In this document: positions 15,128-64,000 of the stretch, piece after piece
Layout: each line of letters starts with the position of its first letter
How positions within the stretch are numbered: position 1 is the stretch's first letter
Notes under the pieces: generated by a model
Database searches by the model: none
What the model saw: the letters and a program-made list of their open reading frames with translations, nothing else
What the model was told of the DNA's origin: nothing
Translations under genes and position numbers: made by a program
Assembly (NCBI GenBank): GCA_024679065.1
Contig: JAGIQG010000006.1
Span: 7,998,001-8,062,000, forward strand
DNA from: Sphyrna mokarran
Taxonomy: Eukaryota
Length of the DNA stretch: 64,000 nt
Direction: 5' to 3'

Positions 15128-15416
15128 TTGGTTAATACTACTGCCCCACAAAACCAAGGACCCAGTTTCGATTCTCAGCTTGGGTCACTGTCTGTGTGGA
15201 GTTTGCGTGTTCTTCATGCATTTGCATGGATTTCCTCCAGGTGCTCCTGGTTTCCTCCCACAGTCCAAAGATGTGCAGGTTAGGTGATTTGGCCATGCTA
15301 AATTCTCCCCGTGTACCTGAACAGACGCCAGAGTGTGATGACTAGGGGATTTTCACAATAACTTCATTGCAGTGTTAATGGAAGCCTACTTGTGACTAAT
15401 AAATAAATAAACTTTG
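15128..15416 (+). mobile_element. tRNA-derived V-SINE (HE1-like)
   Basis: B-box GTTTCGATTC, V-domain GTGGAGTTTGC..CCTGGTTTCCTCCCACAGTCCAAAGA and (AATA)n tail. It ends ~20 nt from the V2 splice donor. Confidence 0.88.
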
Positions 15417-15784: not shown

Positions 15785-15914
15785 CTGAGGAAAGGACAAA
15801 TGACAGAATGATCAGTGTCTGGATGATGTTGCAATCTGGTTTGAGGATGTTAAGATATAAAAAAAATCTCAATACCTTGTTTCAACCAATGGAACCATAC
15901 CGCAAAATTTCACA

Positions 15915-18770
15915 GAACATAGAACATTACAGTGCAATACAGGCCTTTGGCCAAGCTGTAAAACCAACCTAAAGCCCATTTCATCTACACTATTTCAATA
16001 TCATCCATACATTTAGCCAATGACCATTTAAATGCCTTTAATGTTGACGAATCCACTACTGCTGCAGGCAGAACATTCCATGTCCTTACTACTCTCTGAA
16101 TAAAGAACTTGCATCTGATATCTGTCCTTTATCTATCACCCCTCAGATTAAAACTATGTCCCCTTGTGCTAGCCATCTTCATCCAAGGATAAAGGCTCTC
16201 ACTGTCCACCCTATCTAATTGTCTGAAGATCTTATATGCCGCTATTAAATCACCTCTTAACTTTCTTTTCTCTAACAAAAAGAGTCTCAAGTGCTTCACT
16301 CTTTCCTCATAAGACCTTCTCACCATACCAAGCAACATCCTGGTAAATCTCCTCTGCACCCTTTCCAATGCTTCCACATCATTCCTATAATACGGCGACC
16401 AGAACTGTATGCAATACTCCAAGTGCGACCGCGCCAGAGTTTTGTACAGCTGCAACATGACTTCATGGCTCTGAAACTCAATCCCTCTACCAATAAAAGT
16501 TAACACACCATACGCCTTCTTAGCAACTGTATCAACCTGGGTGCCAACCTTCAGGGATCTATGCACATGGACACTGAGTTCTCTCTGCTCATCCACACTA
16601 CCAAGTATCTTACCATTAGCCCAGTACTGTGTATTCCTGTTACTCCTTCTAAAGTGAATCACTTCACACTTTACCACATTAAACTCCATTTGCCACCTCT
16701 CAGCCCAGCTTTGCAGTTTATCTATGTCCCTCTGTAACCTGCAACATCCTTCCATACTGTTCAAAACTCCTCCGACTTTAGTGTCAACCACAAATTTACT
16801 AACCCATCCTTCTATGCTCTCATCTTGGTCATTTATAAAAATGACAAGCAGCATTGGCTCCAAAACAGATCCTTGCGGTACACCACTGGTAATTGAACTC
16901 CAGGATGAACATTTCCTATCAACCACCACCCTCTGTCTTCTTATAGCTAGCCAATTTCTGATCCAAATCACTAAATCACTCTCAATCCCATGCCTCCGTA
17001 TCTTCTGCAATACCTTCCTGTGGGGAACCTATCAAACACATTACTGAAATCGATATACACCACACAAACTGTTTTATCCTCATCCACCTCTTTGGGCACC
17101 TTCTCAAAGAACTCAATAAGGTTTGTGAGGCACGACCTATCCTTAACAAAATCGTGTTGACTATCCCTATTCAAATTATTCCTTTCTAGATTATTATAAA
17201 TCCTATTTCTTATAGTCCTTTCCAAAACTTTGTCCACAACAGAAGTAAGACTCACTGCTCTATAATTACCAGGATTGTCTTTACTCCCCTTCTTGAACAA
17301 GGAGACAACATTTGCTATCCTCCAGTCTTCTGGCACTATTCCTATGGACAATAACGATACAAAGATCAAAGCCAAAGGCTCTACAATCTCTTCCCTAGCC
17401 TCCCAGAGAATCCTAGGATAAATCTCATCCAGCCCAGGGGATTTATTTATTTTCATACTTTCCAGAATTGCTAACACCTCCTCTTTATGTACCTCAATCC
17501 TATCTAGTTTAATAGCCTGTATCTCAGCATTCTCCTCGACAACATTGTCTTTTTCCTGTGTAAATATTCATTTAGCACCTCTCCTATCTTTTCAGACTCT
17601 ATGCACAATTTCCCACTACTTCCTTGATTGGCCTAATCTTACGCTAGTCATTCTTTTATTCCTGACATACCAACAGAAAGCTTTAGAGTTTTCCTTGATC
17701 CTGCCTGTCAAAGACTTCTCATGTCCTCTCCTGGCTTTTCTTAGTTTTAGGTCCTTTCTGGCTAATTTGTAACTCTCAAGCACCCTTAAATGAGCCTTCA
17801 TGTTTCATCTTGACATAACTCTCCTTCTTTCTCTTCAACTTCTTTAATAAACCACGGTTTCCTCGCTCGACCATTTCCTCCCTTCTGACAGGTACATATT
17901 TACCAAGTAGCAGTAGATGTTCCTCACATAAGCTCCACAATTCAATTCATCTCCTGCAGTTTCCTTCCACATCCTATGCATTCTAAATATTGCCTAATTA
18001 CATTATAGTTTCCTTTCCTCCAGCTATAAATCTAGCTCTGCGATATGTACATATCTCTTTCCATTGCTGAAGTAAACATAACCAAATTGTGGTCACTATC
18101 ACCAAAGTGATCATCCACCTCCTAATCTAACACCTGGCCTGGTTCATTACCCAGTACCAAATCCAATGTGGCCTTGCCTCTTGTTGGCTTATCTACATAC
18201 TGTGTCAGGAAATCCTCCTCCACACATTGGACAAAAACTGACCCACATAAAGTACTTGAACTATCCCCTTTTCAGTCAATATTTGCAAAGTTGAAGACCC
18301 CATAACAATTACCCTATTACTTTTGTTCCTAATCAGAATCGTCTTTGCAATCCTTTCCTCTACATCTCTAGAATTTTTCAGAGACCTCTAGAAAACTCCA
18401 AACAGGGTGACCTCTCCTTTCCTGTTTCTAACCTCAGCCCATCCTACCTCAGTAGATGAGTCTTCATCAAACATTCTTTCTGCCACCGTAATACTGTCCT
18501 CAACTAACAGTGCTACACCTCCCCCTCTTTTACCACCTTCCCCGATCTTACTGAAACATCTAAACCCCAGAACCTGCAATAACCATTCCTATCCCTGCTC
18601 TATTCATGTCATGGAACACTATAGCACAAACCGGCCCTTCGGCCATATGTCTCCGAAATGGCCACAACATTGAAGTCCCAGGTACCAACCCACGCTTCAA
18701 GTTCACCTACCTGATTCCGGATGCATTGAAGTAGATACACTTCAAACCACCTTCCTGCCTGCTGGTACAC
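15915..18770 (-). mobile_element. CR1 LINE with near-complete, degenerate ORF2
   Basis: ORFs 18388-18579 (EN), 16971-17477 and 16129-17010 (RT). Tail at ~15915. Confidence 0.92.
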
Positions 18771-20326
18771 TCATTTCAATTTTCTTTTAACAAAAATGAC
18801 TTGGTTTTACATGAAAGAAAAAACAACCACTGTTAACTTAATAATATAGTTTGTAATTTTGTACATTATGCACTCTGGATTACTTCCTAATTCCCTCAAG
18901 AATTCTCTTGTAAGATATATCATTCTTAAATTTATTTTCTTCTGTTGGGACCACCTGTAAGAATGCTGTTGTCTGGAGACTTCTCCTCAGCTCCACCTAT
19001 TCTCAGAAGTATGTCTTTAATTTATGTTCTCTTAATTGTTGAGGTTTTTTTTTATTCTTTCAGTGGAAGTGACTTTTCTGGCAAAGCCAGCATTCACTCC
19101 CCATCCTTAATTGACCTTTAACTGATTGTCTTACTTGGCCATTTCTGTGGGCAGTGAATCAGAACTGACATGCAGACCAGACTAAGAAAGGAAGCAGATC
19201 AATTTCCTTCCCAAAATGACATTAGTGAACCAGATGGGTTTTTATGACAATCGATGTTAGTTTTGTCTTGTAGATTAAATACTTCTGACACAGGTTCTGG
19301 TGGAATTTTTTCAGATCATTTATCACCACCATCCCTTCTTTTTTGAATATATTTATGTTCTGCGATAACCAAGGTCCTGGAAGTGTATGCAATTGAGTGC
19401 CAATACCACCCTGTTGTCATATGAGGACACATCACACATCAGTAATAGGTATTTCCTAGGATTATAATGTGCCAGAACATTTGACGAGGAAAGTTGTTGC
19501 TTTATGTTATTGAAAATAACGTGATGGAGTGTGATGTGGTGGCCATTACAGAGACTTGGTTGTCTCAGGGACAGGACTGGGTACTACAGGTGCCGGGATT
19601 CAGATGCTTCAGGAGGGACAGGGTTGGGGGCAAAAGAGGTGGTGGAGTGGCACTGTTGATCAGAGACAGTGTCATGGCTGCAGAGAAGGTGGATGACGTG
19701 GAGGGAATGTCTACGGAGTCCCTGTGGGTGGAAGTTAGGAACAACAAAGGGTCGATAACTTTGCTGGGTGTATTCTATAGGCCGCCCAATAGCGACAGGG
19801 AAGTTGAGGTGCAGGTAGGGAAACAGATCCTAGAAAGATGTAGAAATAACAGAGTTGTCGTGATGGGAGATTTCAATTTCCCAAACATCGACTGGAATAT
19901 CCCAAGGGTAAGAGGTTTGGATGGGGAGGAGTTTGTTAGGTGTGTTCAGGAAAGTTTCCTGACACAGTACGTGGAAAAGCCTATGAGAGGAGAGACTGTA
20001 CTTGACCTGGTGCTTGCTAATGAGCCAGGACAGGTGTCAGATCTCTCAGTAGGAGAGCATCTTGGGGATGGAAATCATAATTCTATCTCTTTCACGATAG
20101 CAATGGAAAGAGATAGGATCAGGCAGGCTAGGAAGGTGTTTGTCTGGAGTAAGGGGAAATATGAAAACATCAGGCAGGTAATTGGATGAATAAACTGGAA
20201 GGAGGTGTTCTTGGGGAAGAGTACAGAAGGGAAGTGGTGGTTTTTCAAGGAATGTTTGTCTGGGGCTCTGCAAGACAACGTTCCGAAGAGACAAGGAGGT
20301 TTTGATAGGACGCGAGAACCATGGTG

Positions 20327-21066
20327 CACAAAGAACAAAGATCAAAGAACAAAACAGCACGGGAAACAGGCCCTTCGGCCCAATGAGCCGCGCTGCCACC
20401 CCAATGTTCCCACCTCTACCCGTGATCCCTGTCCATGTTTATAGATCTATGGATGAAAAACCAAATTTGAGACAATTTAGGGAGAATTTGTTTTGCCAAT
20501 TAGCCTAAGAGCACATCTTTGGGATGTGGGGGGAAACCGGAGCGCCCGGAGAGAACCCACGCAAGCACAGGGAGAATGCGCAAACTCCCACAGACACAGG
20601 CCCAAATCCGTGTATCTGCACAGCACAGCGATAGTCACTGAGCTGTTGTGTTGCCCATCAAATGGTCCAGGTCAAGTGTACACTAACAACGTGAAGCAGT
20701 AGGATACTCTCGAAAAAGATCCAAGAGCAGTCCTCTCACGACCCATCACGTGTATGCCCCTCGTTAGACAACAAGGTGGATCAAAGCACCTGTAGGATAA
20801 AAACAAGTACATCAATATCATCTATTTACACACTTCCCAGAGACTCCCAAGGCTCATGATCCCTACTTTAAATCAGTTTTCTAAACCCCTCCATTCCCAT
20901 TCTGTTCATGTGCCCATCTAAGTATTTCTTAAATAACTTCAGAGTACCTGCCTCCACCACTTTACTTGGCAGCGCATTCCATACCCCCACCACCCTCTGA
21001 GTGAAAAAACTCCCTCTAGCATCCAAATTATACCTTACCCCCCTCGCCCTAAGTCCGTGACCCCTC
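20327..21066 (-). mobile_element. CR1 3' end with a long SINE-containing 3' UTR (copy 1)
   Basis: RGHGLRARGVRY..MEGFRKLI*, then a ~540-nt UTR with a V-domain (~20525-20595), a stem-loop and a (TTTGTTC)n tail. Confidence 0.88.
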
Positions 21067-22812
21067 GCGTTGAACTCCATCTGCCACTTCTCCGCCCAGT
21101 CTTCCATCCTGTCTATGTCCCGCTGCAACTTTTGACATCCCTCCAGACCATCCACAACACCACTGACCTTTGTATTGTCGGCGAACTTACTAACCCATTC
21201 CTCCACTTCCTCATCCAGGTCATTTATGAAAATGACAAACAGCAAGGGTCCCAGAACAGATCCCTGGGGCACTCCACTGGCGACCGACCTCCATGCAGAA
21301 AAAGACCCATCCACAACCACTCTCTGCCTTCTGCCGGCAAGCCAGTTCTGGATCCACAAGGCCAAAGCCCTTTGGATCACATGCCCTCTCACCTTCTCAA
21401 GAAGCCTTGCATGTGAGACCTTATCAAACGCCTTGCTAAAGTCCATGTACACTACGTCCACTGCTCTTCCTTCATGAATGTGTTCAGTCATATTTTCGAA
21501 GAACTCAACTAGGCTCGTAAGGCATGACCTGCCCTTGACAAAACCATGCTGACTATTTCTGATCAGTCTGAACTTCTCCAAATGTTCATAAATCTTGTTC
21601 CTCAGAAGCCTCTCCATCAGCTTACCAACCACTGAAGTCAGACTCACCAGTCGGTAATTTCCTGGACTATCCTTGTTCCCTTTCTTAAAAATAGGAACCA
21701 CATCCGCAATCCTCCAATCCTCCGGAACCTCTCCCGTTTCCATGGACGACGCAAAGATCATTGCCAGGGGCTCTGCAATCACTTCCCTCACTTCCCACAA
21801 TAACCTGGGGAACATCCCATCCGGTCCCGACGACTTGTCTATCTTGATAGAATTTAACAGATCTAGCACATCCTCTTTCCTAACATCCACATACTCAATC
21901 TTTTCCGTTTGCCTCAAACCTGCAGTACAACCTCCCAGATCACTTTCCACCGTGAATACCGAGGCAAAGTACTCGTTAAGCACCTCTGCCGTTTCTTCCG
22001 AATTCACACAGACTTTTCCCCCTTCACCTTTTATAGGTCCTATCCCTTCTCTTCTCATCCTTTTACTTTTCACATATTTGTAGAAGGCCTTGGGATTCTC
22101 CTTAATCTTACCCGCCAAGGCCTTCTCATGATCCCTTCTGGCTCTCCTAATTTCCTTTTTAAGCTCCCTTCTACACACCTTATACTCCTCTAGATCCCTA
22201 ACATCTCCTAGCTCTCTGAACCTTTTATACACCTTTCTTTTCTTCCTGACTAGGTTCACCACAACCTTGTGTAGAGGTCCATTTTGGCAAGAATAATGGG
22301 ATGAAGGAGTACAATATCAAGGGTAGGAGTCTTAGCTGTGTTGTAGAGCTTGGGGTCTGGGTCCATTGGACTCTTAAATCGGCTTTTCAGGTGGAAGAAG
22401 TGTTAAGAAGGCATATGGTGTACTGGCCTTCGTTAATCAAGGAATTAAGTTTAGGAGTCAGGAGGTAATGATGCAGCTTTATAGGACCCTTGTCAGACCC
22501 CACTTGGAGTACTGTGCGCAGTTGTGGTTGCCTCATTATAGGAAGGATGTAGAAGGTATTGAAAGGGTGCAGAGGAGACTTACAAGGATGCTGCCTGGAT
22601 TGGGAGGCATGCCTTATGAAGATAGGTTGAGGGAGCTGGGACTCTTCCCCCTGGAGAGACGTAGGTTGAGAGGCAACCTGATAGAGATTTAAAAAATGTT
22701 GAGAGGAATAGATGGGGTGGATTCTCAGAGGCTATTTCCCTGAACTGAAATGGTCACAAGAGGACACAGATTTAAAGTGCAGGGAAGCAAATACAGAGGG
22801 GATGTTAAGGGT

Positions 22813-23028
22813 AAGTTCTTTACCCAAAGGGTGGTTCAGGAGTGGAATGCCCTGCCTGCAGCAGTTGTAGATGCGCCAAGTTTGGTGGCGTTTAAGAGGT
22901 TAGTTGATAAGTATATGGAAGAGAAGGGAATGGTTTAGTTTGGAGGGTCATTGCTTTTTATATTGGTCGGTGCAACGTCGAAGGCCGAAGGGCCTGTTCT
23001 GTGCTGTAATGTTCTATGTTCTATGTTC
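22813..23028 (+). mobile_element. Young CR1 3' end inserted at the homologous position of CR1 A
   Basis: KFFTQRVV..KYMEEKGMV* plus tail, followed immediately by the host KFFTQRVV. Confidence 0.88.
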
Positions 23029-26000
23029 AAGTTTTTCACTCAGAGGGTGGTGAATGAATGGAATCGGCTGCCATCGGAGGTGGTAGAGGCAAACTCGCTG
23101 GGGTCTTTTAAAAGACTTCTGGATGAGTATATGGGAACTAATGGGATATGGGGTTATAGATAGGTCTGTGGATTGGTAGGTATGGATGTGATTGGCACAA
23201 CTCGTGGGCCAAAGGGCCTGTTTGTGCTGTAGTGTTCTATGTTCTATGTTCTAAAACCAAGGATTGATGGGGTGATCTCTCCCGAGGCTGATTCTTTTAG
23301 CAGTTGGTGTAATGGAGCCATGATGGAGGCAAGGTTGGACATAAATTTCCCATAGTAAGTTACCAATTCCGGAAATAGTTTTAACTCCTGGATGGTGAGA
23401 GCTGGGGCACCTTTGAATGCCTGCACCTTGTCCTCCAAGGGGCGCAGACCAGACTCGTCTACTCTGTAGCATCAATTGGTCATTTAGAAGGTCTGGAATA
23501 CACATTTTCTTCTTAGGCACACACCTGTCTTTGAAAATTGATTTAGAACTTCCTCAACATTCTCTAGGTGCTCCTTATATGTTTTTCCCTCATGACGCCA
23601 TCACCCAGATAAAGTGCAATTTGAGGTAAACCTTGTAAAACTTTCTCCATCGTTTGCTGGGAGATTGTGCAGGCTGACAATACTCCAAATGGCAGTCTAG
23701 TGTATTGATAAAGACTCTTAAGAGTATGACTATCTATGGGAATCCTCATCTATCTGTACTTGTAAGTTAGTGTGAATCGTATCAAGTTTTGAAAACTTCA
23801 TCCATAAATCCTTGATCTGAGGGATTGGGTATTTATCCAGTTTTGAGAAACTGTTTGCCATTTGTTTAAGTGGACTGATCCATCTGGTTTCAAAATTGGC
23901 ATGCCTGATGCTGCCCATTCTACAAATTGGACTGGCTTGATGATCCCTTCATGTTCCAGTCTTCAGATTTCTGCTTCAATTTTTTTTTATAAGGCAATTG
24001 GTACTGGACAGACTTTGCAAAATCATGGAATCGCTCCCTGGTCAACATATTAGGTCACCTTGGCTCCTTTTTTGGTCCCTAGCCCTTCCTGGAAAACTTT
24101 AGGGAATTTAAGCAGAACTTCACTCAGGTGGCCATTCTCTACCTGAAAAATGTTGAGCCAATCTAGGTGTGCCTCTCACCATTAATTTTGTTCCATTAGG
24201 CTTGGTCCTGAGACCTCCACTACAATCACTGATAACCAAACCAGCTGCCTTTCACGGGAAAGAGAGACTAAGGTTATTCCCACAATTCACAAAGCTTTCC
24301 CTGTATAGTTTTGCAGTCCTGCTGACATATTGAGTAAAGTTAAGGACTTGAGTTCTGGACAAATTTTACGGAACATTGATTCTTTGATCACTGATAATGG
24401 CCGCAATGATATCGACCTCCATTAGTACTTGATACCTATTTAATCATACATTTATCTTGATTGGACTTGGACATCAATATGCAATTTAATTGTTCTAAAT
24501 CAGATATGGCTGGACCTTCCGAGATCTAAAGTCTCCTGCGTATTGGCCTATAAGTTGTTTTTTTAAATCTAGATCTTGTAGCACTCCTTTGTTGTTTCGA
24601 CTCTGCATACCGGCAACAAATGCAATGTGAGATTCTGAAGGGACTTGCGACTATTTGGCCAAAGTTTGGCTTTGTTTTGAGGCTGTGCGGTGGACAGCCC
24701 TGGAGTTATGTGTATCTGGATACTTTCTGAGTGAGGCTATGTAATCATCAGTGCTCAAGCGATGATCCCCGAATTCAAATGAACTGGCCTGGATGTCGAC
24801 TTCTACTAGGTGCTTTGCAACTCATGTGCTCCACTTGCAGCATTTCCCAATGATAAGGCCAGCTGTAGTTCCTGTCTGAAGTCCAGCTGAACTTCAGCGA
24901 AGAGATGGTTTTGAATAGTTACGTTATTAATCCTACATTCCAGACGGTCGCTCAGCATTTTGTTAAGGGTTAAACCAAATTCACATGCTTCGACTAGTTA
25001 TCTTAACCTGGTTAGAAAACCCATGACAGATTCCTCTGGCTCTCAGATTGCTGAGTAAAAGCCGTAACATCTCAGAATTAGGGGTGACTTGGGGTCGTAG
25101 TATTCTGTAACCAGTTCAGTCAATTCTTGAAAGGTGCCTCAGAGAAAGTTAACCTTCGAAAGACAGCAAATACTGAAGCCTGACAGGCAGTCAGGAGAAT
25201 TACCCATTTTTCATCTGCCATAATGTCGTTTTACCCAAAAAAAGAAACACATGCATTCCACATATTGGGCCCAGTCCTTGACAGGGTTGAACAAGTTAGC
25301 CTTCCAAACAAAGGCCTGAAGCATTAGAATAGCTTACCATAACTTAGGCCAACTGTTGTGCACAAATTCCTTCAGGGTCATGTTTTACCATGTCACCACT
25401 GAAAAAGCTCCTCACTTCACCAAGTTTAGATTTATTTACATAGTAAGCAACACTCAAACAGATACTTCCTCGTACAGATTGTAAACACAGAGTACCAGTA
25501 ACCCTGACGCTCCACATTATGTACGCATGCAGGGCTCTCTGAATGGACAAGCCATTACTGCCTTAATCTATGAGCTTATATTCTAAGAGGTCCACATTGT
25601 GGGCCTTGTTAAAGTCATTACTTTTTCCACAGACAGTCACCCAAGGTTGGAATCAAATCCAAGATTTTAGCGCCGTGAGGCAACAGTATCACTGTGCCAC
25701 TGAACCGCCCTGAGGCCCCTGCATTGATTCTTTTGGCACAATGCTATTCACTGCCTGCCAACTTGAAAAAGCCCAATTTATGCCACTCTCTATATATTAA
25801 ACAATCAATCCATGCTAAAACATTACATCTGACTCCATGATTTGCAAATTAACCTTTTGTGGGACACCTTGTTCAAAACCTTCTGGAAATCCAGACACAC
25901 TTTGGGTCAAATCTTCCAAAAAAAGGCAGAGTTTTGTTTCTAGTGAGAAAACTGAGAGAAATAGGTTGGTTTTTCTCCAGATCTTGTGACACTCTGCCAA

Positions 26001-27990: not shown

Positions 27991-27995
27991 CCATT

Positions 27996-28859: not shown

Positions 28860-31760
28860 AAATGACAGCCAGTAAGCACATCCTTCATCTCTGCAGTTAT
28901 CTCCTTTAAGTCTGAGGCTGTGGCCCATCAGGCCCCTTGGATTTAATCCTTTAAGTTTCTCCAGAACTACTTCTCTTTTGATATTAATTTTTCTAATTTC
29001 CTCACTTTTTAGCCCTATGTTTACTGATTATTTCTGGAATAATATGAAATATTTGTCTAATGCCCCATCATTTCCTCATTCTCATGTTAATTTTACCTGT
29101 ATTTGAACCAAATGGACCAAAGTTAACTTTAGTTATTCTCTTTCTTTTTATATGCTTATAAAAACCTCTTACAATCTGTTTTTATATAGCTACCTAGTTT
29201 ATTCTAACATTCTATTCATTTCCCTTTTTGTCAATTTTTTGGTTGCCCTTGGCTGGTTTCTAAAATGTTCCTAATCCTCAGAGATCTAGGGTTCTTTGCA
29301 ATATTAGAAGCTTCCTCTTCTAATCTAAAACTAACCCTAACATTCTGAATGAGCCATAGTCTTTCTTGCTAAGTTTTTCAATAGAATATACAGTTTTGGA
29401 CATTTGAATTCTTTCCATTTCCTACTGTTTATTTACAGCCAAACCTTTTAGTCTATTTAGCCAGTTTTCCTCTCGTACCTATATAACGTGTTTTGCTCAA
29501 GTTTAAGATTCTTGTCTGTGCTTGGGATCTGTCACTTTCAAATTTAAACTGGAATTCATCACTGTTTCCAGTGGATTCTTTATAATGGCATTACTAATTA
29601 ACCCTGATTCACTACACAATACCAAATCTATGATAGCTTTATCTGTGGGTGATTCCACTACAGACAGGTTCAGGAAACATTCCACAAACTCACCTTCAAT
29701 GTAGATTACTCTTACCAATTTGATTGTTCCAGTCTAGATGAAAATTAATGTCCCTCACAATTATTGCATCTTCTGTACTACAACCGCCAATGGTTTCTTG
29801 TTTCATGCTCTGTCCAATTGTATAACTACTATGAAGGGCCTGTTTTATGACTCTTGCTATTTCTAATTCTGTGTCACCTGTGAACTTACTGATCATACCC
29901 ACCCTCCATATTCCCATCTAGCCAGCAGTCGTAATACACATTGGTAAAAACAATATAGGTTAAAAAAAGAATGAAGTCCTGTAAACATTATATAAGGAGT
30001 TAGGAAGTAAATTGAAAAGTAACACCACAAAGGTACTGATTTCAGGAATACTACCAGTGCCACATGCTGGTCAGAATAGAAATAGCAGGATATATCAGAT
30101 GAGTGTGTGGCTGAAGAGATAGTTTGAGGAGGGGAGTTTCAGATTCATGGGACATTGGGAGCATTCTGCGGAGGTGGAACCAGTACACACTGGATTGGTT
30201 ATACCTGACATTCTAGGGTGAGTATTTGCTAGAGTGTTTGGAAAAGGCTTAAGCTGAGATGGCAGGGGAGAATAGCCATCTATGTAAGGTGTCTAAGGAG
30301 AGAGAATGAAGGACAAGAACAAACAATTGTAGAGCCAAAGGGACTATTTCCTGTGCTGTGCTGTTCTTTGTAAAATACAGAAAGGGAAATAAGAAAAGTG
30401 ATAGGCAGAGAAACCAAAGAGCCAGAATTAAAGATGGCCAACAATGAAAAACAAGTAACAAGTAGTGTCAGAAAGGCAAGCCTTAGAGTTCTGTACCTTA
30501 ATCCATGGAGCATTCTTAGTAAAGTGAATGAATTAATTGCATAAACAGGTATGATATAGTTAAAATTATGAAACATGGCTGCTGGGTGACCAGGCATGGA
30601 ACTGAACTCTGAGATTTCAATGTTTAGGAAGGAAAAGGCAGTGGAGTTACATTGCCGGTTAAAGAGGAAATTAATGCAATAATGAGGAAAGATATTAGTT
30701 CTGACCATATGGAATCTGTATGGGTAGAGCTAAAAAACATTAAAGGGTAAAAAAATGTTAGTGGGGATTATATCTAGATCCCCCAAACTGTAGTGGAATG
30801 TTGGGGACAAAATTAAACAGGAAATCAGAGATGCAAGTGAAAAAGGAACATCTATAATTTAGGTGACTTTAATCTGCATATAGATTGGCAAATCAAGTTA
30901 GTCATAATACCATAGAGGGGACATTCTTGGAGTGTATACAGTCTAGTTTTCTGGAGCAATATGTTTTTAAACTATAACCCAGCAGCTTTCAATAAAAACA
31001 TTTACCAAATTCACTATCTCTTGGTTTCTAGTCCAGCTGTGTGATTATCCAGGCTATCCCTGGGCTGTCTGACTGATTGATTCCCCACATGTATTTTAAC
31101 AAAGTCTTTTGCAACCTCTAGAGGATCTAGAGAACAGATCATCCAAATTGGGTATTATCTAATGAGAAAGAAATAGTTGACAATCTAGTTATGCAAGATT
31201 CCTTGGGAATGAGTGACCAGAATATGGTAGAATTTTTCATCAAAATAGAGAATGAGATAATTGATTCTGAGACAAGGGTCCGAAATCTTAATAAAAGATT
31301 CTATGATAATATGAGGTGCAAGTTCGCTAAGATGGATTAGGAAATGTTATTTAAAGGGATGATGGTGGATAGACAATGGCAAACATTCAAAGAGCGAATG
31401 GGATGAACTGCAACAATTGTTTATTTCTGTCTGGCACAAAAGTAAAATTGGAAAGGTGGCCAAACCATGTCTTACATAGGAAAACAGAGATAGTATTGGA
31501 TCCAAGGAAGAGGCATATACATTGGCCAGAAAAAACAATAGATCTGAGGTAGGGGAGCAGTTTAGAATTCAGCAAAGGAGGGTGAAGGGATTGATTAAGA
31601 AGGGGAAAATAGAGTATGAGAGTAATAATGTAAAAAATGGCTGTAAAAGTTTCTGTAAAGAATAAAAAATTGACGTAGACAAATGTAGGCCCCTTACTGT
31701 CAGAAACAAGGGCATTTGTAATGGAAACGAAGAAATGGCTGACAAAGTAAATACATATGT
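28860..31760. mobile_element. Old degenerate CR1 elements (minus ~28860-29900; plus ~29930-31760 including the ORF1 esterase end)
   Basis: KVLISGILPVPHA and LDWLYL-type ORF1 motifs. EN motifs YRSP, GDFN and SDQN carry many stops. Confidence 0.7.
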
Positions 31761-33892: not shown

Positions 33893-35887
33893 AGAATAAA
33901 AGAACAAAGAACAAAGAACAATACAGCACAGGAAACAGGCTCTTTGGCCCAACGAACCCACGCCACCATTTTAACAGCGTGAGTTCCATCTTCCGCCCAT
34001 GACCCTTGTCTATGTTTATGGAAACACACATTGGAAACCATATTGGGGAGACAATTTAGAGACAAATTGTTTTACCAATCAGCCTAAGACCACATCTTTT
34101 GGTGTGGGAGGAAACCGGAGTGCCCAGAGAAAACCCACGCAACCATGGGGAGAATGCACAAACTCCCACAGATACTGGCCCAAATCCATGTATCTGCACA
34201 GCAAACAGTGATAGTCACTGAACTGTCATGTTGCCCATCAACTGGTCCAGTTTATGCGTACACAAATGATGTGAAAAATCATTGAAAAATCCAAAAACAG
34301 CCCTCGCACGACCCATCGCGTGTATGCCCCTTGTTGGACAACAAGGCGGACTGAAGCACCTGTGGAATAAAAGAGAATAACATCAATAACATGCACATCT
34401 TATACACATATTCAAGGAAATCCCCAGAAGCTCAAAAGTAAAACAAGTGAGCCAGAAAAGTATGTTGGAAGATCCGTAGGAATCAATTGATTCCCAGGAA
34501 AGTCCCAAGGCTCCCGATCCCTATTTAAAACAGTCTTCTATATCACTCCATCTCTATTCTGCTCATGTGCCTATCTAAGTATTCCTTAAATAACTCCAGC
34601 ATGCCTGCCTCCACCACCTTACTTGGCAGTGCATTCCATACCCCCACCACCCTCTGTGAGAAAAACCTCCCTCTATCATCCAAATTATACCTCGCCCCAC
34701 CCTTACCCTAAGCCCATGGCCCCTCGTCATATTTGTTTCCCATCTAGGAAAAAGCTTACTACTGTTTACTCTATCTATACCCTTCATAATCTTATACACC
34801 TCTATTAGATCTCCTCTCAGTCTACGTCTTTCTAAAGAAAACAGCTCCAATTTGCCCGACTTTTTTTCTCGTAACCCAGACCTTCCATACCAGGCAGAAT
34901 CCTGGTAAACTTCCTCTACATTCTCTCCAAGGCTTCCACATCCTTCTGATAGTAAGGTGACCAGAACTGGACGCAGTACTCTAAATGAGGTCTAATCAAC
35001 ATTCTATACAACTGCAACACCTAACATCAGCTCTTGTACTCTATACCCCTTCCTATAAAGACTAGCATACCATAAGCTTTCTTCACAATATTCTCCACCT
35101 GTACTACTACCTTCAAAGACTTGTGCGCTTGCACTCCCAGGTCCCTCTGCATTTCTATGCTCTTAATAGGTCTACCCTTTATCATATAATCCCCTACACA
35201 TTATTTCTCCCAAAATGCATCATTTCGCATTTATCAGGATTAAATTCCATCTGCCATTTATCTGCCCAATCTACCAGCCTATCTGTGTCCTGCTGTATTG
35301 CCTGACAATGCTCCTCACTGTTGCAAGTCCAACCACCTTTGTGTCATCTGCAAACTTACTGACCACACCACTTACTCCCTCTTCCAAGTCATTTATGTAT
35401 GTTACAAATAGAAGAGGTCCCAGTACTGAGCCCTGCGGCACACCACTAGTGACCGACCTCCAGCTAGAAAAAGACCCTTCCACTACTACTCTCTGTCTCC
35501 TATTACCAAGTAAAGTTTTACAACACCAATTTTAAATCCAACCAATTTATTTGATATTAAATTCGCGAGCTTTTGACTTTATAGCCTTCGACAGGCAAAT
35601 GCTTGACGAAGGCTATAAAGTCGAAAGCTCGCGAATTTACTATCAAATAAATTGGTTGGATTTAAAATTGGTGTTGTAAAACTTTACTGAGTTTACCCCA
35701 GTCCAACGCCGGCATCTCTACATCATCCTACTACCAAGCCAGTTACTAACTCACCTCGATACCTGTCCTTGTATTCCATGAGCTTTGACCTTTTCAACTA
35801 ACCTCCCATGAGGGACTTTGTCAAACGCCTTACTGAAATCCATATAGACATCAATAGCTTGTCCTTCATCGACTGTTTTTGTCACCG
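33893..35887 (-). mobile_element. CR1 LINE with a long SINE-containing 3' UTR (copy 2)
   Basis: RT fragments at 35751-35948, 35271-35483 and 34575-34850. V-domain at ~34104-34170 and (TTTGTTC)n tail. Confidence 0.9.
35509..35725 (+). mobile_element. Penelope-type palindromic short element inserted in a CR1
   Basis: 82-nt inverted arms (35509-35590 and 35607-35688, 2 mismatches) followed by a TTTACCCCAGTCCAACGCCGGCATCTCTACATCA tail. 13-bp TSD TCCTA(T/C)TACCAAG at 35498-35510 and 35726-35738. Confidence 0.8.
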
Positions 35888-39109: not shown

Positions 39110-40153
39110 TTAGAGTCGTAGAGATTTACAGCATGGAAACAGGCCCAACTTGTCCATGCCGCCCTTTTCTTAAAACCCCTAAGCTAATCCCAATTGCCCG
39201 CATTTGACCCATACCCCTCTACACCCATCGTACCCATGTAACTATTTAAATGCTTTTATATTTTAAAAATGCTCCCTCTGTGTAAATATTTCTTTGTTTT
39301 TGCCATTTGAAGTTGGTGCTAGTCCTATTAATATCTAAATGATTAAGCATTTACTGTAAGATCATAAGACATAGGAGCAGAATTAGGTTACTCAGTCCAT
39401 CGAGTCTGCTCTACCATTCAATCATGGCTGATATTTTTCTCATCCCCATTCTCCTATCTTTTCCCCATAACTCTTGATTCCCTTATTAATCAAGAACCTA
39501 TCTATCTCTGTCTTAAAAACACTCAATGACCTGGCCTCCATAGCTTACTGCGGCAAAGAATTTCACTACTCTCTGGGACCCATACCTAAGGAAGGACGTA
39601 CTGGCTTTAGAAAGGGCTCAGAGGAAGTTCACAAGAATGATCCCTGGAATGGAGAGCTTGTTGTATGTGGAACAGTTGAGGAATTTGGGTTTGTACTCAT
39701 TGGGAGCTTAGAAGGATGAGGGGGCATCTTATTGAAACTTGCATGATACTGTGAGGCCTGGAAAGAGTGGATGTGGAGAGGATAAAAGAACAATACAGTA
39801 CAGGAAACAGGCCCTTCAGCCCTCCAAGGATATTTTCCATTAGTAGGAAAAACTAGAACCAGAGAGCACAAATTCAGGCTAAAGGGACAATCCTTTAAAA
39901 CAGAGATGAGGAGGAATTTCTTCAGCCAGAGAGAGTGTAAAACTTTTGAACTCTTTGCCACAGAAGATTGTGAAGGTCAGGTTCATTGATTGTCTTTAAG
40001 ACAGAGATAGATAGGTTCTTGATTAATAAGGATTAAGGGTTATAAGGAAAAGGCAGGAGAATGGTGATGAGAAAAATATCAGCCATGATTGGACAGGGGG
40101 GCAGACTTGAAGGGCAAGTGGCCTAATTCTGCTCCTATACTTTATGGTCTTAT
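39110..40153. mobile_element. Cluster of CR1 3' ends (minus 39110-39260 and 39363-39570; plus 39575-40153 with a ~45-nt minus tail insert at 39785-39827)
   Basis: CR1 3' UTR and tail motifs. GGATA is duplicated around the small insert. Confidence 0.8.
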
Positions 40154-40154
40154 G

Positions 40155-42890
40155 TTAATTGCATATGGGACTGCAACATTCAGTATTATAAAAAGCCAGG
40201 GAAACATTGAATTTGTAGAAATGATGGCAAATCATTACTATCTTAAACCTTCCATGGTCTTGCAAGGGTACAGGTTCAATACAATTACTAGATTTACAGG
40301 GAAACCAATGGCAGAATTTCTGACATGACTAAGAAAACTGGTGGAGCATTGTGAATATGGCACAGCATTAATGGAAATGCTGAGAGACTGTTTAGTGTGT
40401 GGAATAAATAATCTAGCAATCCAAAGAAGTCTTTTGACAGAGCCAAATCTAGATTTAAAAAAGACTAGAGAGCTGGCCTAAGCTCGGAAGAATAAGAGGA
40501 AAGGAGCATAAGAGCTGCAAGGATCTTTAGATAGTAATGTCCATAGGTTCAGGCAAGTGCCCTTCCGCAGACCCAGGTCCCCAGTTGAACATACTCATGA
40601 ATCCCATCCTTGGGCGAGAAAAAATGAGCAAGCAGAGAAACTAAGAAATCTCAACATTGGCTGAGAGACAGATGTGCAGTTTAGGAAGCAGCCAGCACAG
40701 CAGCACTGACACGCAGCCAGAGACCCTTCTCCAAGCAAGGTTACCAAAACAAACAGAGTGCACAATACTCATATCGAAGGGCAAAGCCAGACAAAATAGA
40801 ACATACCAAATAAGCCAGGCCGGAGAGGGGGAACTAGCATTACTAAGTTGCATCATAACCCCAATATAGATACAGCTCCAAGTGAATGGACACCCATTGG
40901 ATATGGAGGTGAACATGAGGGCAGTGGTATCTATTGAAGGGGACTGAAAATTTAGAAGGTTAAGATTGGATATCTCCATACTCACATTGAAGGACATCAA
41001 AGCAAAATTGGCAACTTATAGGATCATTACGAGTAGTGGGGATTACCATAGTCCCAGTCACATGTGGGCAACAAACAATTTGACTCCCGTTGATAATGGT
41101 ACAAGAGACTTGACCATTTTATTTTTCCAAGGTCTGTCTTGAAAACATCTGGATATTTTCCTATTATGTTTTATAAGTTTCCAGTGCCCATTTTTGAATT
41201 TTTCCTCCAATCCAACTGGATTTTCTGTAACCAGTCCCTTCGCAAAAGCCTTTTGCGACACTTACAGTGTCGACAAAGATGGTCTACACCCAGTCATAGA
41301 AAGGGTAAGAGCCATAAAAGAAGCTCCAACACCAAGGAACATGATGGAATTAAAATCGTTCCTTGGCCTCTTTAATTATTATGGAAAGTTCATTTCAAAC
41401 TTGGCAACCTTACTGGCATCAGAAGAGGGCATGGAAAGAACCACAGGAGGATGCTTTTGTAATGGTAAAATACCAACTACAATCTGACAACATGTTGACC
41501 CATTTCAGCCTGGAAAGGTCATTGGTCATAAAATGCAACATCTCTCCTTGTGTAATAAGTGCAGTACTATTGTTTCGATGGAACAACAGGATGGAGCACT
41601 CGATTGCGTATGCCATGATAACATCAGCCAACAGAAAAGGAAAATAAACACAGATAGGAAAAGAGGTTTGGCAATGGTCTTCGCAGTAAAGAAATTCCAT
41701 CAATATGCATACAGTCAACACTTTACAATCGTAACAGACCACAAACCTCTGTTGAATCATTTTCCTGAGCACAAAATGATCCCTCCTATAGCGTCAGCCC
41801 AAATAAAGCAATGAGCACCATTACTATGTGCTTATGAATATACTCTGGAACATAGACCAGAGGCACAAGTCACCGACATAGACGCCTGAGTACTTACTTT
41901 TGCCCACAAGCTTTTCATCACCACCGAATATGGCTGAAGTAATGATGACATTAAATTTTATGGACATTCTGCCAATTTTGGTGAAACAAATAAAGACTTG
42001 GACTTGAAACAACCCAACATTGGTGAAACTAAGCTGCATGATATTAAATGGAGGTATGCAGGATGTCTTTTTGTGACTTGAAACCTTTTGTGACAAAGTC
42101 CCTGAATTAAGCATAGAAGACAGCATTATCCTGTGGGGAGCCCGGGTAGTTATCCCACATCTCATTCAAAGGCCTGTCCTTCAAGAACTTTATAAGGGGT
42201 GGCATGGTAGCACAGTGGTTAGCACTGCTGCTTCACAGCATCAAGGACTGGATTTTGATTCCTGGCTTGGGTCACTGTCTGTATGGAGTCTGCATACTCT
42301 CCCCATGTCTGCGAGGGTTTCATCCAGGTCCTCCAGTTTCCTTCCACAGTCCAAAGATGTGCAAGTTAGATGAATTGGCCATGCTAAAATTCTTCCTCAG
42401 TGTGCATAAACAGGGGCCGGAGTGTGGCGACTTAGCTGGGGATTTTCACAGTGACTTCATTTCAGTGTGAATGTAATTTTACTTGTGACTAATAAGCAAT
42501 CTTTAAAATAAATAAACTGATGGGTCATCTAGACATATCAAAATTGAAGATACTAGTGAGAAGCTACGTCTGGTGGCCTGGTACTGATGTGAAATAGAGA
42601 AAATGGTGAAATCATGTAAAATGTACCAGGAAAACCAGAACCGATAGTTTCGATACATGCAGACTTTACAGGACTATTTATGGGCTCTTTTTTTTATTTT
42701 TAATTGACACCCATTCTAAATTGATGGAAATGCACTGGATAACATCCACCACATCTCAAAATACGATACAGAAACTACAGTTTTACAGAAAGTGTAAAGC
42801 ACAGTTCCTTTACAACCGACTCCTAGAGTTATGACAATAACAATAGTTATGTGAAGTGCTAAAGGTTCTAAATGACAGAGCTGGTCCACT
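40155..42890 (+). mobile_element. Decayed Gypsy gag-pol
   Basis: Motifs LRKLVEHCEYG..MLRDCLVCGIN, ELKSFLGLFNYYGKF, VFAVKKFHQY..FTIVTDHKPL and RSYVWWPG. Confidence 0.82.
42197..42516 (+). mobile_element. Full-length tRNA-derived V-SINE
   Basis: GGGTGGCATGGTAGCACAGTGGTTAGC head, V-domain, and the same 3' part as 15128-15416. Confidence 0.9.
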
Positions 42891-60789: not shown

Positions 60790-61095
60790 AGAATCATTGA
60801 ATTCCGTACAGTGCTAAAGGATGCCATTTAGCCCATTAAGTTTGCACCGACAACAATCCCACTCAGGCCCTATCCCCATAACCCCATGGATTTACCCTGA
60901 TAATCCCCTGACACCAAGAGGCAATTTAGCATTATCAATCAACTTTAGCCACAAATCTTTGGACTGAGGAGGAAACTGGAGCAGCGGGAAGAAACCCTGC
61001 AGACATAGAGAATATGCAGATTCTGCACAGTCACCCAAGGCTGGAACTGAACCTGCGTCCCTGGCACGATGAGGCAGAAGTGGTAACCATATTGC
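60790..61095 (-). mobile_element. V-SINE with CR1-type tail (HE1-like)
   Basis: Minus-strand tRNA head, V-domain (GGAGGAAACTGGAGC on the plus strand) and a CR1-like 3' end. Confidence 0.8.
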
Positions 61096-61419
61096 TTCCC
61101 ATACTCTATACTTATCCCAAGAACTCTCTTAAAAGACATATCAACCTTAAAGTTATTTATTTCTGTGGGAGCACCCATAATAATGCTACAATCTTCTGAA
61201 GAATTCTCTTCAGCTCCAGCAATTCCTAAGAGGCAAATCTTTCTTTTACCCCTTTCTTAGCTGTGGAGACCTCAATCCCGTGTTTTGGTTATTTTTCCAA
61301 CATTTCCAACCTAATTTGCTGGTGTCTTTTGCAATGAGAGACAGAGAACAACATTAGATTCTCCTACACACTGCAAAATCAACAATCTATCAGCAACTGT
61401 TCCTCATCAATTTTTTTTA

Positions 61420-64000
61420 AGAGAGCAACACAGCACGGGAAACAGGCCCTTCGGCCCAACGAGCCCGCGCCGCCGTCATAACTATATAGTAGCAATTCCA
61501 TTATCCTATTATAGATTTAGGTTATTCCTAATATGGAAGACTCTCACTATAGGGACAATTTGTTTCCCAATCAGCCTAAGAGCGAATTTTTGGGTTGTGG
61601 GAGGAAACCGGAGTGCCCGGAGAAAACCCACGCAACCACGGGGAGAACGCGCAAACTCCCGCAGACACCAGCCCAATTCCAAGTGTCTGCACAGCCACAT
61701 CGATAGTCTCTGAGCTGTCATGGTGCCCTTCAGATGGTCCACATAAAGCACTCATTTACGACATGAGGTACCAGGCAACCCATGAATCAACATCCAAGAG
61801 CTGTACCCGCACCACCTGCCGAATGCATGCTCAAAGTATGGACCGAATTACCTGTGGAAAAAAAGCCGTAGTTAAACAGTCCTAATATATCCCTCTATCT
61901 GCATACCGCTCATGTGGCTGTCCAAGAGACCCTTAAACAGCCCCAGCGTGCCTGCTCCCACCACCTTACTCGGCAGTGCATTCCACATCCCCACTACCCT
62001 TTGTGTGAAAAACTGCCCTCTAATATTTGTCTTATACATAGCCCCCCTCACCCTATGGCCATGACCCCTCATCCTATCCATTTCTGAAGGTGCAAAAAGT
62101 TTACCTCCATTTACTCTATCTATACCCCTTATAATCTTATACACCTCTATGAGATCCCCTCTAAGCCGATGTCTTTCAAGGGAAAACAACCCCAGTCTAT
62201 CTAATCGTTCCTCATAAGACAGTCCTTCCATACCAGGCAGCATCCTGGTAAACCTCCTCTGCACTCTCTCCAAGGACTCCACATCCTTCCGATAGTACGG
62301 CGACCAGAACTGGACGCAGTATTCCAAGTGAGGCCTAACCAACGTTCTATACAACTGCAACATCAAACTCCTACTCTTGTATTCTATACCCTTTTCTATG
62401 AAAGCTAACATACTATACGCCTTCTTTATCACCTTCTCCACCTGTGAGGACACCTTCAGAGACTTGTGAACCTGCACCCCCAAGTCTCTCTGCGTCTCTA
62501 TGCTCCGTACCTTTTATCCTATAACTCTCTTCTACATTTTTCCGGCCAAAATGCATCACCTCGCATTTATCCGGATTAAATTCCATTTGCCATCTATCTG
62601 CCCAGTCTACCAACCTATCTATGTCCTGTTGTATTGCCTGACACTGCTCCTCTGTACCCGCCAATCCAAGCATCTTGGTGTCATCAGCAAATTTGCTGAT
62701 CTCACCACCTACCCCAACTTCCAAGTCGTTTATGTAGACCACAAATAGAAGAGGACCTAGTACTGAGCCTTGTGGCACTCCACTAGTGACAGGCTTCCAG
62801 CCGGAAAAAGCCTTCCACTACTACCCTCTGTCTCCTCCTCCCGAGCCAGTTCTCGACCCATCTACATACCCGACCCTGTATCCCATGCGCCTTCACCTTC
62901 TCTATCAGTCTACCATGAGGAACCTTGTCAAACGCTTTACTGAAATCCATGTAGACGACATCAACAGCCTGTCCTTCATCAACTGTTTTTGTCACTTCTT
63001 CAAAAAATTCCACTAGATTTGTAAGACAAGACCTCCCCTTGACAAAGCCATGCTGCGTATCCCTGATCAGATCGCAGCGCTCCAGATGCTCATACATCCT
63101 GTCCCTGAGGATCCTCTCCATTAGCTTACCTATAACTGAAGTCAAGCTCACCGGCCTATAGTTCCCTGGGTTATCCCTCTGCCCTTTTTTAAACAACGGT
63201 ACTACGTTTGCTATCCTCCAGTCCTCTGGGACCTCACCTGTGTCCAAGGAAGAGACAAAGATTTGCGTCAGAGGCCCAGCCAAGTCTTCCCTCAACTCCC
63301 TTAGCAGCCTGGGTAAATGCCATCAGGCCCCGGAGCTTTATATGTCTTTAAGCTGCCTAACAGCCCCAACACCTCTTTCCTCGTAATACTTATTTCCCTC
63401 AACCGATCCTCAACTTTGTCAACATCAGGCACAGACATCTGTCCAGTCTCCTGCGTGAATACCGACGCAAAGTATTCATTCAGGATCTCCCCCATTTCCT
63501 CAGGCTCTAAGCATAGATCCCCTCCTCTGTCCCTAAAAGGTCCAATCTTGCCTCTAACCATCCTTTTGCTCCTTACATAGGTGTAAAATGCCTTTGGATT
63601 TTCCTTTATCCTACCTGCCAGAGCCACCTCGTGGCCCCTTTTTGCCTTTCTAATACCCCTTTTAAGATCCCGTCTACACTCTCTATAAGCTTCCAGCGCT
63701 GTCTCAGCCCCCAGTTGCCTAGATCTAATGTAAGCCTCTCGCTTCTTCCTGATCAAGTCCTCAATCTCCCTGGTAAGCCACGGTTCTCTAATCCTACCTT
63801 TCCCATCCTTCCTCCTTGCCGGCACGTATCTTTCCTGCAGAGTTTTAGTTTTCCCTTGAAAGACTCCCACATGTACCTCGTCGACCTGCCCTCGGAAAGC
63901 TTATCCCAGTCGGTATCTTTAAGATCTTGCCTAATCTGGCTGTATCTAGCCCTCCCCCAGTTAAATACCTTCCCTTTTGGGCCGGTCTCGTCCTTTTCCA
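61420..64000 (-). mobile_element. Young CR1 LINE ORF2 (few frameshifts, runs off the window) with a long SINE-containing 3' UTR (copy 3)
   Basis: Consecutive ORFs 63301-63870, 62783-63295, 62413-62778 and 61872-62483. V-domain at ~61596-61665 and GGCCGAAGGGCC stem-loop at ~61445. Confidence 0.93.

What the first reader, a model, noticed from the sequence alone, without database searches (positions are those of the whole stretch)
20327..20867. CR1 LINE lineage that carries a whole V-SINE as its 3' UTR (three diverged copies)
Seen: three minus-strand CR1s (3' UTRs at 20327-20867, ~33893-34530 and ~61420-61871) have 450-640-nt UTRs, against ~100 nt in the other CR1s here. Each contains, in sense orientation and the same order: GGACCA.YTGA.GGGCA, a degenerate tRNA-SINE head (GGGCAACACAACAGCTCAGTGACTATC.., B box lost), the V-domain (GGGAGTTTGCGC.TTCTCCC..GCGTGGGTT..CCGGTTTCC.CCCAC), then the CR1 stem-loop and tail. 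The three copies have different ORF2 C-termini, so the fusion is ancestral and was propagated by retrotransposition. Known: shark HE1 V-SINEs borrow the 3' tail of a CR1 (HER1). Inference: the reverse capture occurred, with the LINE adopting its parasite as its own 3' end. The V-domain appears better conserved than the flanking UTR, which hints at a function in retrotransposition or RNA stability.
Basis: partly seen in the sequence, partly recalled or inferred. Interest (0 to 1): 0.75.

Follow-up and report, generated by a model that had tools for sequence, protein, structure and literature searches.

The report
Retrotransposon lineage keeps captured SINE module
A lineage of self-copying CR1 retrotransposons, probably in a shark or ray, carries in its tail a captured piece of a parasitic short repeat whose promoter is broken but whose sequence and predicted RNA fold are kept, which offers a direct way to test what this ancient conserved piece does.

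Summary
Three minus-strand CR1 3' ends have 454-626-nt UTRs; the 14 other ends measured have 32-55 nt before the terminal hairpin. All three carry a decayed tRNA head plus V-domain at one position, with the same 18-nt B-box deletion and no shared target duplication. Their ORF2 ends group together, dN/dS is 0.24-0.35, and flanks are unrelated: one capture, spread by retrotransposition. Corrections: the SINE is not whole, the origin of the tail is unresolved, and copy 1 has only 200 nt of its own ORF2. New here: the V core stays 87-89% identical while synonymous sites (46-55% against copy 3) and both spacers (39-61%) decay. Each copy independently folds head+V into the same four-way junction plus the known Vhc hairpin. 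A splice-acceptor-like site is also kept. Best reading: the LINE dropped the Pol III promoter and keeps the RNA fold because it helps the RNA in cis; the function is inferred. Limits: three copies, one window, weak covariation, and Repbase/Dfam shark consensuses unchecked.

The parts
20868..21067 (-). Copy 1: last 66 codons of CR1 ORF2 (all it has of its own ORF2; 5'-truncated)
20789..20806 (-). Copy 1: pyrimidine tract + AG|G, splice-acceptor-like
20672..20788 (-). Copy 1: spacer A, unknown origin
20594..20671 (-). Copy 1: decayed tRNA-SINE head, B box deleted
20512..20593 (-). Copy 1: V-domain core
20526..20654 (-). Copy 1: predicted four-way junction (20654-20561) and Vhc hairpin (20560-20526)
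20397..20511 (-). Copy 1: post-V SINE body (20511-20472) and spacer B (20471-20397)
20327..20396 (-). Copy 1: CR1 terminal stem-loop and repeat tail; junction with host at about 20333
21068..22268 (-). Inverted 1.2-kb piece of a different host CR1 joined to the 5' end of copy 1 (not part of the lineage)
34525..35885 (-). Copy 2: CR1 ORF2 3' part, with stops and frameshifts, 5'-truncated, interrupted by a 224-nt insertion at 35502-35725
34252..34524 (-). Copy 2: variable post-stop stretch, acceptor-like site (34376-34359), spacer A
34051..34251 (-). Copy 2: head remnant (34251-34172), V core (34171-34091), post-V body
33899..34050 (-). Copy 2: spacer B, CR1 stem-loop and repeat tail
61872..64000 (-). 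Copy 3: CR1 ORF2, with frameshifts, running off the window; RT domain piece matches Pfam RVT_1; last 210 codons open
61744..61871 (-). Copy 3: acceptor-like site (61865-61851) 6 nt after the stop; spacer A, a long hairpin (z -4.3)
61545..61743 (-). Copy 3: head remnant (61743-61665), V core (61664-61583), post-V body
61418..61544 (-). Copy 3: spacer B, CR1 stem-loop and short tail
39781..39822 (-). Tail-only (about 40 nt) insertion of the same tail type inside another CR1, 6-bp duplication
30332..30371 (+). Tail-only fragment of the same tail type
15128..15416 (+). Comparator: free V-SINE, tail without the CR1 hairpin
42197..42516 (+). Comparator: free V-SINE with best-kept head, tail without the CR1 hairpin
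60790..61095 (-). Comparator: free V-SINE with CR1-type tail

Best explanation
An active CR1 LINE once took a V-SINE (tRNA head, V-domain, some body) into its 3' UTR, in sense orientation, by insertion behind ORF2 or by a template switch. Before the lineage diversified, an 18-nt deletion removed the B box, so the piece can no longer be transcribed by RNA polymerase III and travels only inside the LINE's own RNA. The lineage then split into subfamilies that kept copying by target-primed reverse transcription from the usual CR1 hairpin tail. Through that divergence, selection on the element kept head+V, most likely as a folded RNA module (a tRNA-shaped four-way junction followed by the Vhc hairpin) that raises the chance that the RNA survives or is packaged with ORF2 protein. 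SHOWN: architecture, single origin, loss of the B box, spread by retrotransposition, excess sequence conservation. PREDICTED: the fold. INFERRED: selection as the cause and the benefit in cis.
For: Same 18-nt deletion in 3 of 3 copies, absent in 3 of 3 free SINEs. Head+V of the three form one group, 100/100, with 29 columns where all three share a base absent from all three free SINEs (11+7+11). ORF2 ends group likewise: 92/95 among 16 rows over 200 nt; copies 2+3 100/100 among 12 rows over about 970 nt. No ORF2 end of this lineage without the block was seen in the window. dN/dS 0.24 (205 codons, copies 2-3), 0.30 and 0.35 (65 and 64 codons). No similarity among five 500-nt flanks, differing 5' ends, tail-only insertions. 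V core 72/81, 71/82, 72/81 identical; against copy 3, spacers 88/165 and 88/162, synonymous p-distance 0.45-0.54. V is as conserved as first and second codon positions (p 0.24) and as the terminal hairpin (80-89%), although it holds up to 8 CpG. Each copy alone gives the same five helices at mean pair probability 0.74-1.0, also within the whole UTR; 128 of 132 cells pair. Neutral simulations rarely keep three folds so alike (0 and 1 of 300). [quoted passage not shown] Three published frog V-SINE consensuses can form the same junction with double changes in the closing helix (read by eye from supplement passages of PMC6887750).
Against: Only three full copies from one window. Covariation among the three is not significant against the shuffle control (54 of 500); two of the four double changes sit in a CpG palindrome and could be deamination after insertion. 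With CpG-weighted mutation the fold similarity is reached in 29 of 360 and the pairing in 42 of 360 runs, though four double changes in 0 of 360. Variable columns are not depleted in stems (16/88 against 9/41, p 0.64) and the structure conservation index is unremarkable (64 and 106 of 300), so sequence may matter as much as shape. Folding z-scores of head+V are modest (-2.3, -2.4, -1.0). The three free SINE copies do not adopt the fold as their minimum-energy structure. The three-copy ORF2 group misses the 95 bootstrap mark and copy 3 is a long branch. No expression or activity data.
Confidence: 0.6

Rival explanations
1. Single capture, but the block is a passenger: it looks conserved because subfamilies exchanged it by gene conversion or template switching more recently than their ORF2s diverged.
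For: LINE 3' ends recombine (general knowledge); the V-domain has been proposed to promote module exchange (passage in PMC4758252); n is 3; structural statistics are weak.
Against: Spacers on both sides are at the neutral level against copy 3 (56-61% and 39-52%), so an exchange would have to cover only the 200-nt block, and the hairpin separately. The block shares 29 diagnostic columns not found in the three free SINEs, so those are not the donors.
Confidence: 0.2
2. The kept function is splicing or RNA processing: the acceptor-like site makes the structured UTR a terminal exon, so the element yields a short ORF2-less RNA (its own SINE-like product) or traps host transcripts, and V is kept for that RNA.
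For: All three copies keep a pyrimidine tract, YAG|G, an AG-free zone and a branch-point-like motif; 16 of 9075 AG sites in the window meet these criteria and three are these (criteria recalled and set after seeing the sites). Length varies freely (6, 61, 148 nt) just upstream and stops varying at the tract.
Against: The three sites are homologous, so one event; could be a relic of captured host DNA. No spliced copy in the window (spacer A matches only the three copies). Donor-like motifs in ORF2 are not distinctive. Not exclusive of the best explanation.
Confidence: 0.12
3. The direction is the reverse: V-SINEs took their V-domain from this LINE's UTR.
For: SINE bodies can derive from LINE UTRs (RTE, Vingi; PMC5786205 abstract and passages).
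Against: A tRNA-head remnant with a precise B-box deletion lies in front of V; V-SINEs range from vertebrates to cnidarians (PMC4824008 passages), whereas this lineage is one branch among the window's CR1s.
Confidence: 0.03
4. Three independent SINE insertions in or behind CR1 copies, or segmental duplicates of one dead chimera.
For: The window is dense in LINEs and SINEs (318 self-matches); one 7-nt repeat flanks the block in copy 2.
Against: Identical deletion and position; no repeat of 6 nt or more in copies 1 and 3; unrelated flanks; dN/dS far below 1.
Confidence: 0.02

Closest known systems
CR1-clade LINEs of sharks and rays (HER1 type)
   Same: RT-bearing ORF2, terminal stem-loop plus short repeat, 5' truncation. 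Closest named protein hit is from Chiloscyllium punctatum, 59%; birds and turtles about 42-58%.
   Different: 3' UTR 454-626 nt instead of about 100 nt, holding a SINE head remnant, V-domain and acceptor-like site.
V-SINE superfamily (HE1 of sharks and rays, DANA, Ac1, frog V-SINEs)
   Same: tRNA-type head followed by the roughly 80-bp V-domain; HE1 is listed with partner LINE HER1 (table in PMC3747384).
   Different: No B box, not a free unit, embedded in a LINE; flow of sequence is SINE to LINE, not LINE to SINE.
MER6/MER6A MITEs (PMC6887750; abstract, passages and supplement passages seen)
   Same: A V-SINE piece without a working head, spread by another kind of element.
   Different: MER6 is a non-autonomous DNA transposon that moves without RNA, so its V can only ride along; here V sits in the RNA template of an autonomous lineage and outlasts its neighbours.
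Ingi-3_AC with a Ceph-domain-like stretch (PMC5786205, passage)
   Same: A LINE holding a SINE conserved-domain-like piece, possibly by recombination with a SINE.
   Different: 5' UTR, RTE-derived piece, no tRNA head remnant reported in the passage; other LINE clade.
Vhc stem-loop (PMC4758252, section 11 part 1)
   Same: The last helix here corresponds by description to the 39-bp Vhc hairpin with internal loop.
   Different: That paper says the hairpin does not appear preserved in the whole fish V-domain; here it is predicted at 0.89-1.0 next to a four-way junction.

Membership tests
CR1-clade LINE | ORF2 with reverse transcriptase domain most like CR1 ORF2 | tested here: met
   Pfam RVT_1 2e-18 in copy 3; best protein hits are vertebrate RT-domain proteins, recognised as CR1 from recall. 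Copy 1 has only the C-terminal 66 codons.
CR1-clade LINE | 3' terminal stem-loop followed by short tandem repeat | tested here: met
   (z -2.7, 0.0, -2.2)
CR1-clade LINE | Endonuclease domain, ORF1 and 5' promoter (full-length autonomy) | not testable with these tools
   Copies 1 and 2 are 5'-truncated; copy 3 runs off the window at 64000. dN/dS 0.24-0.35 shows coding masters indirectly.
CR1-clade LINE | Dispersed copies with unrelated flanks and 5' truncation | tested here: met
V-SINE | Central V-domain of about 80 bp | tested here: met
   69-79% to the three free SINEs over the V block; close by eye to published MER6, Ac1 and frog V sequences
V-SINE | tRNA-derived head with intact A and B boxes | tested here: not met
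   Head remnant present, A box degenerate, B box removed by an 18-nt deletion in 3 of 3; no tRNA call by ARAGORN or Rfam
V-SINE | Free, non-autonomous unit with its own insertion boundaries | tested here: not met
   Joined to ORF2 in 3 of 3; no shared duplication around the block
V-SINE | 3' tail borrowed from a partner LINE | tested here: inconclusive
   Tail is CR1 type, but whether it is the LINE's own or came with the SINE is unresolved
A described Repbase/Dfam shark CR1 family | Consensus with V-domain in its 3' UTR | not testable with these tools
   No such library here; the chondrichthyan CR1 consensuses in the supplement of PMC13343379 are cut at 400 characters, and even a common tail motif gave 0 hits, so the blank means nothing

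The most novel reading that the evidence does not exclude
The V-domain is a portable cis-acting RNA module: its 5' half pairs back with the tRNA head to rebuild a tRNA-shaped four-way junction and its 3' half forms the Vhc hairpin, and this fold makes any RNA a better retrotransposition template. That would explain why V persisted in SINEs from cnidarians to vertebrates. This CR1 lineage stole the module from its parasite, cut out the Pol III promoter and kept the fold, and may also splice into it to make its own SINE-like RNA.
Probability: 0.3. Interest if true: 0.82.

Novelty: new variant of a known kind. Interest (0 to 1): 0.64.

Why it matters
The known flow of sequence is from LINE to SINE. 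Here it runs the other way and was kept through subfamily divergence. Why SINE conserved domains such as V stay conserved is stated as open in PMC4758252, PMC4824008, PMC5499810 and PMC11481361 (passages); the proposals are host benefit, help in tail exchange, or help in proliferation. An autonomous LINE that keeps V without a promoter separates these. It needs no tail exchange and no Pol III transcription, so conservation points to a role of the RNA itself in the element's copying. It also supplies a ready test system, the same LINE reporter with and without the block, and a specific structure to probe. For annotation, such UTRs would be masked as separate SINE plus LINE hits, which could hide the family and inflate V-SINE counts.

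Tried and rejected
Rfam: no match in the window at gathering scores and only chance-level matches (E 3-9) in the three UTRs; my passing idea that spacer A is 5S-rRNA-like got no support. ARAGORN found no tRNA. No reading frame is conserved after the acceptor-like site (read by eye). A shared hairpin in spacer A is strong only in copy 3 (z -4.3, -1.6 in copy 1, +0.9 in copy 2) with no significant covariation (72-244 of 500): not claimed. Spacer B as a relic of another CR1's ORF2 end is only suggestive. No conserved poly(A) signal. The first tail scan missed most sites and was replaced. Bacterial and archaeal genomes: 0 matches to the junction motif; four distant LINE fragments without a V hit. 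Protein searches gave relatives up to 87% identical but without names or DNA, so they say nothing about UTRs. Literature: 10 searches turned up no report of a CR1 with a V-domain in its 3' UTR or of a four-way junction in V-SINE RNA. I saw term-matched passages of 9 papers (one section part in full, supplement passages for three), none in full. Ogiwara 2002 is not held and Ogiwara 1999 was seen only as a reference; either may bear on both claims. One supplementary file of PMC4758252 could not be searched, and bioRxiv supplements were closed.

Full report
SETTING. The window is dense in LINE fragments (318 self-matches). The closest named relative of the copy 3 ORF2 C-terminus is a bamboo shark protein at 59% identity; bird and turtle proteins give about 42-58% and unnamed records up to 87%. 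A shark or ray host is therefore likely but inferred.

OBSERVATION. A scan with the terminal hairpin motif gave 22 sites. For the 17 given, the distance from ORF2 stop to hairpin is 32-55 nt in 14 and 486, 574 and 414 nt in the three copies of the finding (stops ending at 20868, 34525, 61872). The three UTRs align in one order: a variable stretch of 61, 148 or 6 nt, a pyrimidine tract with AG, spacer A, a head remnant, the V core, a short post-V body, spacer B, and the CR1 hairpin with repeat tail. The V block is 69-79% identical to the three free SINEs and, by eye, close to published MER6, Ac1 and frog V-SINE sequences. The head remnant matches the head of the best-kept free SINE at 57-65% (0-1 of 2000 shuffles), but not significantly the other two.

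CORRECTIONS. The captured piece is not a whole SINE. All three copies lack the same 18 nt that hold the B box in all three free SINEs, and the UTR has extra sequence of unknown origin in front of the head; spacer A matches nothing else in the window. Copy 1 has only 200 nt of its own ORF2. The 1.2 kb upstream is an inverted piece of the host CR1 into which it inserted, 92% identical to 5335-6535, and the tail meets the host at a short microhomology. Only one of the three free SINEs has a CR1-type tail, and the lineage's hairpin resembles other CR1 tails in the window more than that SINE's tail. Spacer B faintly resembles the ORF2 end of the CR1 at 48.4 kb in copies 1 and 2 (9 and 45 of 1000 shuffles, 17 comparisons each) but not in copy 3. 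Whether the LINE kept its own tail or took the SINE's is open.

ONE CAPTURE, SPREAD BY RETROTRANSPOSITION. Head+V of the three copies form one group against the free SINEs (100/100) with 29 diagnostic columns. The last 200 nt of ORF2 group the same three among 16 rows (92/95, below the starred level, copy 3 long-branched), and about 970 nt group copies 2 and 3 at 100/100 among 12 rows. No ORF2 end of this lineage without the block was seen in the window. ORF2 diverged under coding constraint: dN/dS 0.24, 0.30, 0.35, values that include decay after insertion. Five 500-nt flanks share nothing, no repeat of 6 nt or more brackets the block in copies 1 and 3 (one 7-mer in copy 2), and two tail-only fragments of the same tail type occur, one with a 6-bp duplication. 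Independent insertions and segmental duplication are excluded. The head remnant with its precise deletion, and the presence of V-SINEs from vertebrates to cnidarians (PMC4824008 passages), set the direction as SINE into LINE.

EXCESS CONSERVATION. V core identities are 72/81, 71/82 and 72/81; head 78-88%; post-V 84-87%; terminal hairpin 80-89%. Against copy 3, spacer A is 56-61%, spacer B 39-52%, the ORF2 end 70-76%, and synonymous p-distances are 0.45-0.54. V exceeds the spacers (p 3e-8, 1e-7, 2e-3), third codon positions (p 7e-4) and fourfold sites (p 2e-3), and equals first and second positions (p 0.24) (pairs are not independent). Branch lengths agree: copy 3 has 0.37 in ORF2 and 0.11 in head+V. 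Because both flanking spacers have decayed, a swap of the whole UTR does not explain this; selection or conversion confined to the block does.

PREDICTED STRUCTURE. The three copies fold head+V into four helices meeting with no unpaired base, followed by a hairpin with an internal loop. The closing helix pairs the 5' end of the head with the V-domain; the third arm's loop marks the B-box deletion. Each copy gives this fold alone (helix probabilities 0.74-1.0) and within its whole UTR; 128 of 132 cells pair and four pairs change on both sides. The statistics are mixed. The shuffle control is not significant (54 of 500). Neutral simulations reach equal fold similarity in 0-1 of 300 runs and equal pairing in 2 of 300, but an equal conservation index in 64-106 of 300. 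With CpG-weighted mutation the first two figures become 29 and 42 of 360, and four double changes 0 of 360. Two of the four double changes lie in a CpG palindrome. Stems are no less variable than loops (p 0.64). Mapped on all six V elements, 81% of cells pair and 11 pairs change on both sides (0 of 500 shuffles), which relatedness can inflate; the decayed free copies do not adopt the fold as their best structure. Read by eye, three frog V-SINE consensuses can form the same junction, with two double changes in the closing helix. The final hairpin fits the Vhc stem-loop described in PMC4758252, whose authors did not see it preserved in whole fish V-domains. I rate the fold likely, not shown.

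ACCEPTOR-LIKE SITE. All three keep a pyrimidine tract, YAG|G, an AG-free zone and a branch-point-like motif; 16 of 9075 AG sites in the window meet these recalled criteria, which I set after seeing the sites. Length variation stops at the tract. No conserved frame follows and no spliced copy is in the window. It is a lead.

MECHANISM. Most likely (0.6) the LINE absorbed a V-SINE, lost its Pol III promoter early, and has since kept head+V because the folded module helps the LINE RNA in cis (stability or assembly with ORF2 protein), while the usual hairpin still primes reverse transcription (established for stringent LINEs; PMC3747384 passage). Architecture, single origin and excess conservation are shown; fold is predicted; benefit is inferred. 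Rivals: passenger homogenised by conversion (0.2), splicing-centred function (0.12), reverse direction (0.03), independent insertions or duplication (0.02).

COMPARISON AND NOVELTY. It is a CR1 LINE by every feature that could be tested. The block is V-SINE-derived but fails V-SINE membership (no B box, not a free unit). Precedents are partial: MER6 carries a headless V-SINE in a DNA transposon, and Ingi-3_AC has a Ceph-like piece in its 5' UTR. Ten literature searches found no report of this architecture; the Repbase-wide SINE-LINE comparison (PMC5786205) has no occurrence of 'shark' and one of 'CR1', and the 2026 CR1 survey has one of 'UTR', about the 5' end. But Repbase, Dfam, both Ogiwara papers and the 3' ends of that survey's shark consensuses (cut at 400 characters) could not be seen, so an unannotated or annotated consensus may exist.

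VERDICT. Real feature, new variant of a known kind, interest 0.64. Its value lies in turning the open question of what SINE conserved domains do into a direct deletion-and-rescue test; its weakness is three copies from one window.

Noticed in passing
window 19552-23253: Copy 1 sits at the breakpoint of a 1.2-kb inversion (21068-22268) inside a plus-strand host CR1, with microhomology at the tail: an insertion that probably inverted its target.
   Followed up: partly
window 35502-35725: 224-nt insertion in copy 2 ORF2 that holds a 180-nt palindrome (94% arm identity) and a piece similar to 27995-28060; family not identified.
   Followed up: partly
window 31760-31824 (+): Isolated tRNA-SINE head with intact A- and B-box-like motifs but no V-domain behind it.
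   Followed up: no
window 15128-15416 and 42197-42516: Two free V-SINEs share a tail without the CR1 hairpin, ending A-rich; recalled as Rex1-type, not tested. At least two V-SINE families with different partners coexist.
   Followed up: no
window 15536-15905 and 58129-58482: Another repeat (78% identical pair) with a strong acceptor-like site on the minus strand at 15785 and 58363.
   Followed up: no
window 1465-1787 and 8695-9016: Two CR1 3' ends 98.8% identical: a very young family.
   Followed up: no
window 18610-18645, 53462-53515, 30332-30371, 39781-39822: Several tail-only CR1 insertions of 35-55 nt, showing extreme 5' truncation.
   Followed up: partly
window 61744-61850 (-): Spacer A of copy 3 folds into one long hairpin, z -4.3, 0 of 200 shuffles; weaker or absent in the other copies.
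   Followed up: partly
proteins P0099, P0106; loci L001-L004: CR1 ORF2 proteins 68-69% identical to copy 3 are labelled as bacterial in NCBI, and four prokaryotic genome contigs hold LINE fragments: probably host contamination.
   Followed up: no
supplement of PMC6887750: Three frog V-SINE consensuses appear by eye able to form the same head-V four-way junction, suggesting a general V-SINE fold; not computed.
   Followed up: partly
window 1942-2200, 2201-2650, 28156-28672: A 259-N assembly gap, followed by a tandem repeat array; a second array near 28.2-28.7 kb.
   Followed up: no
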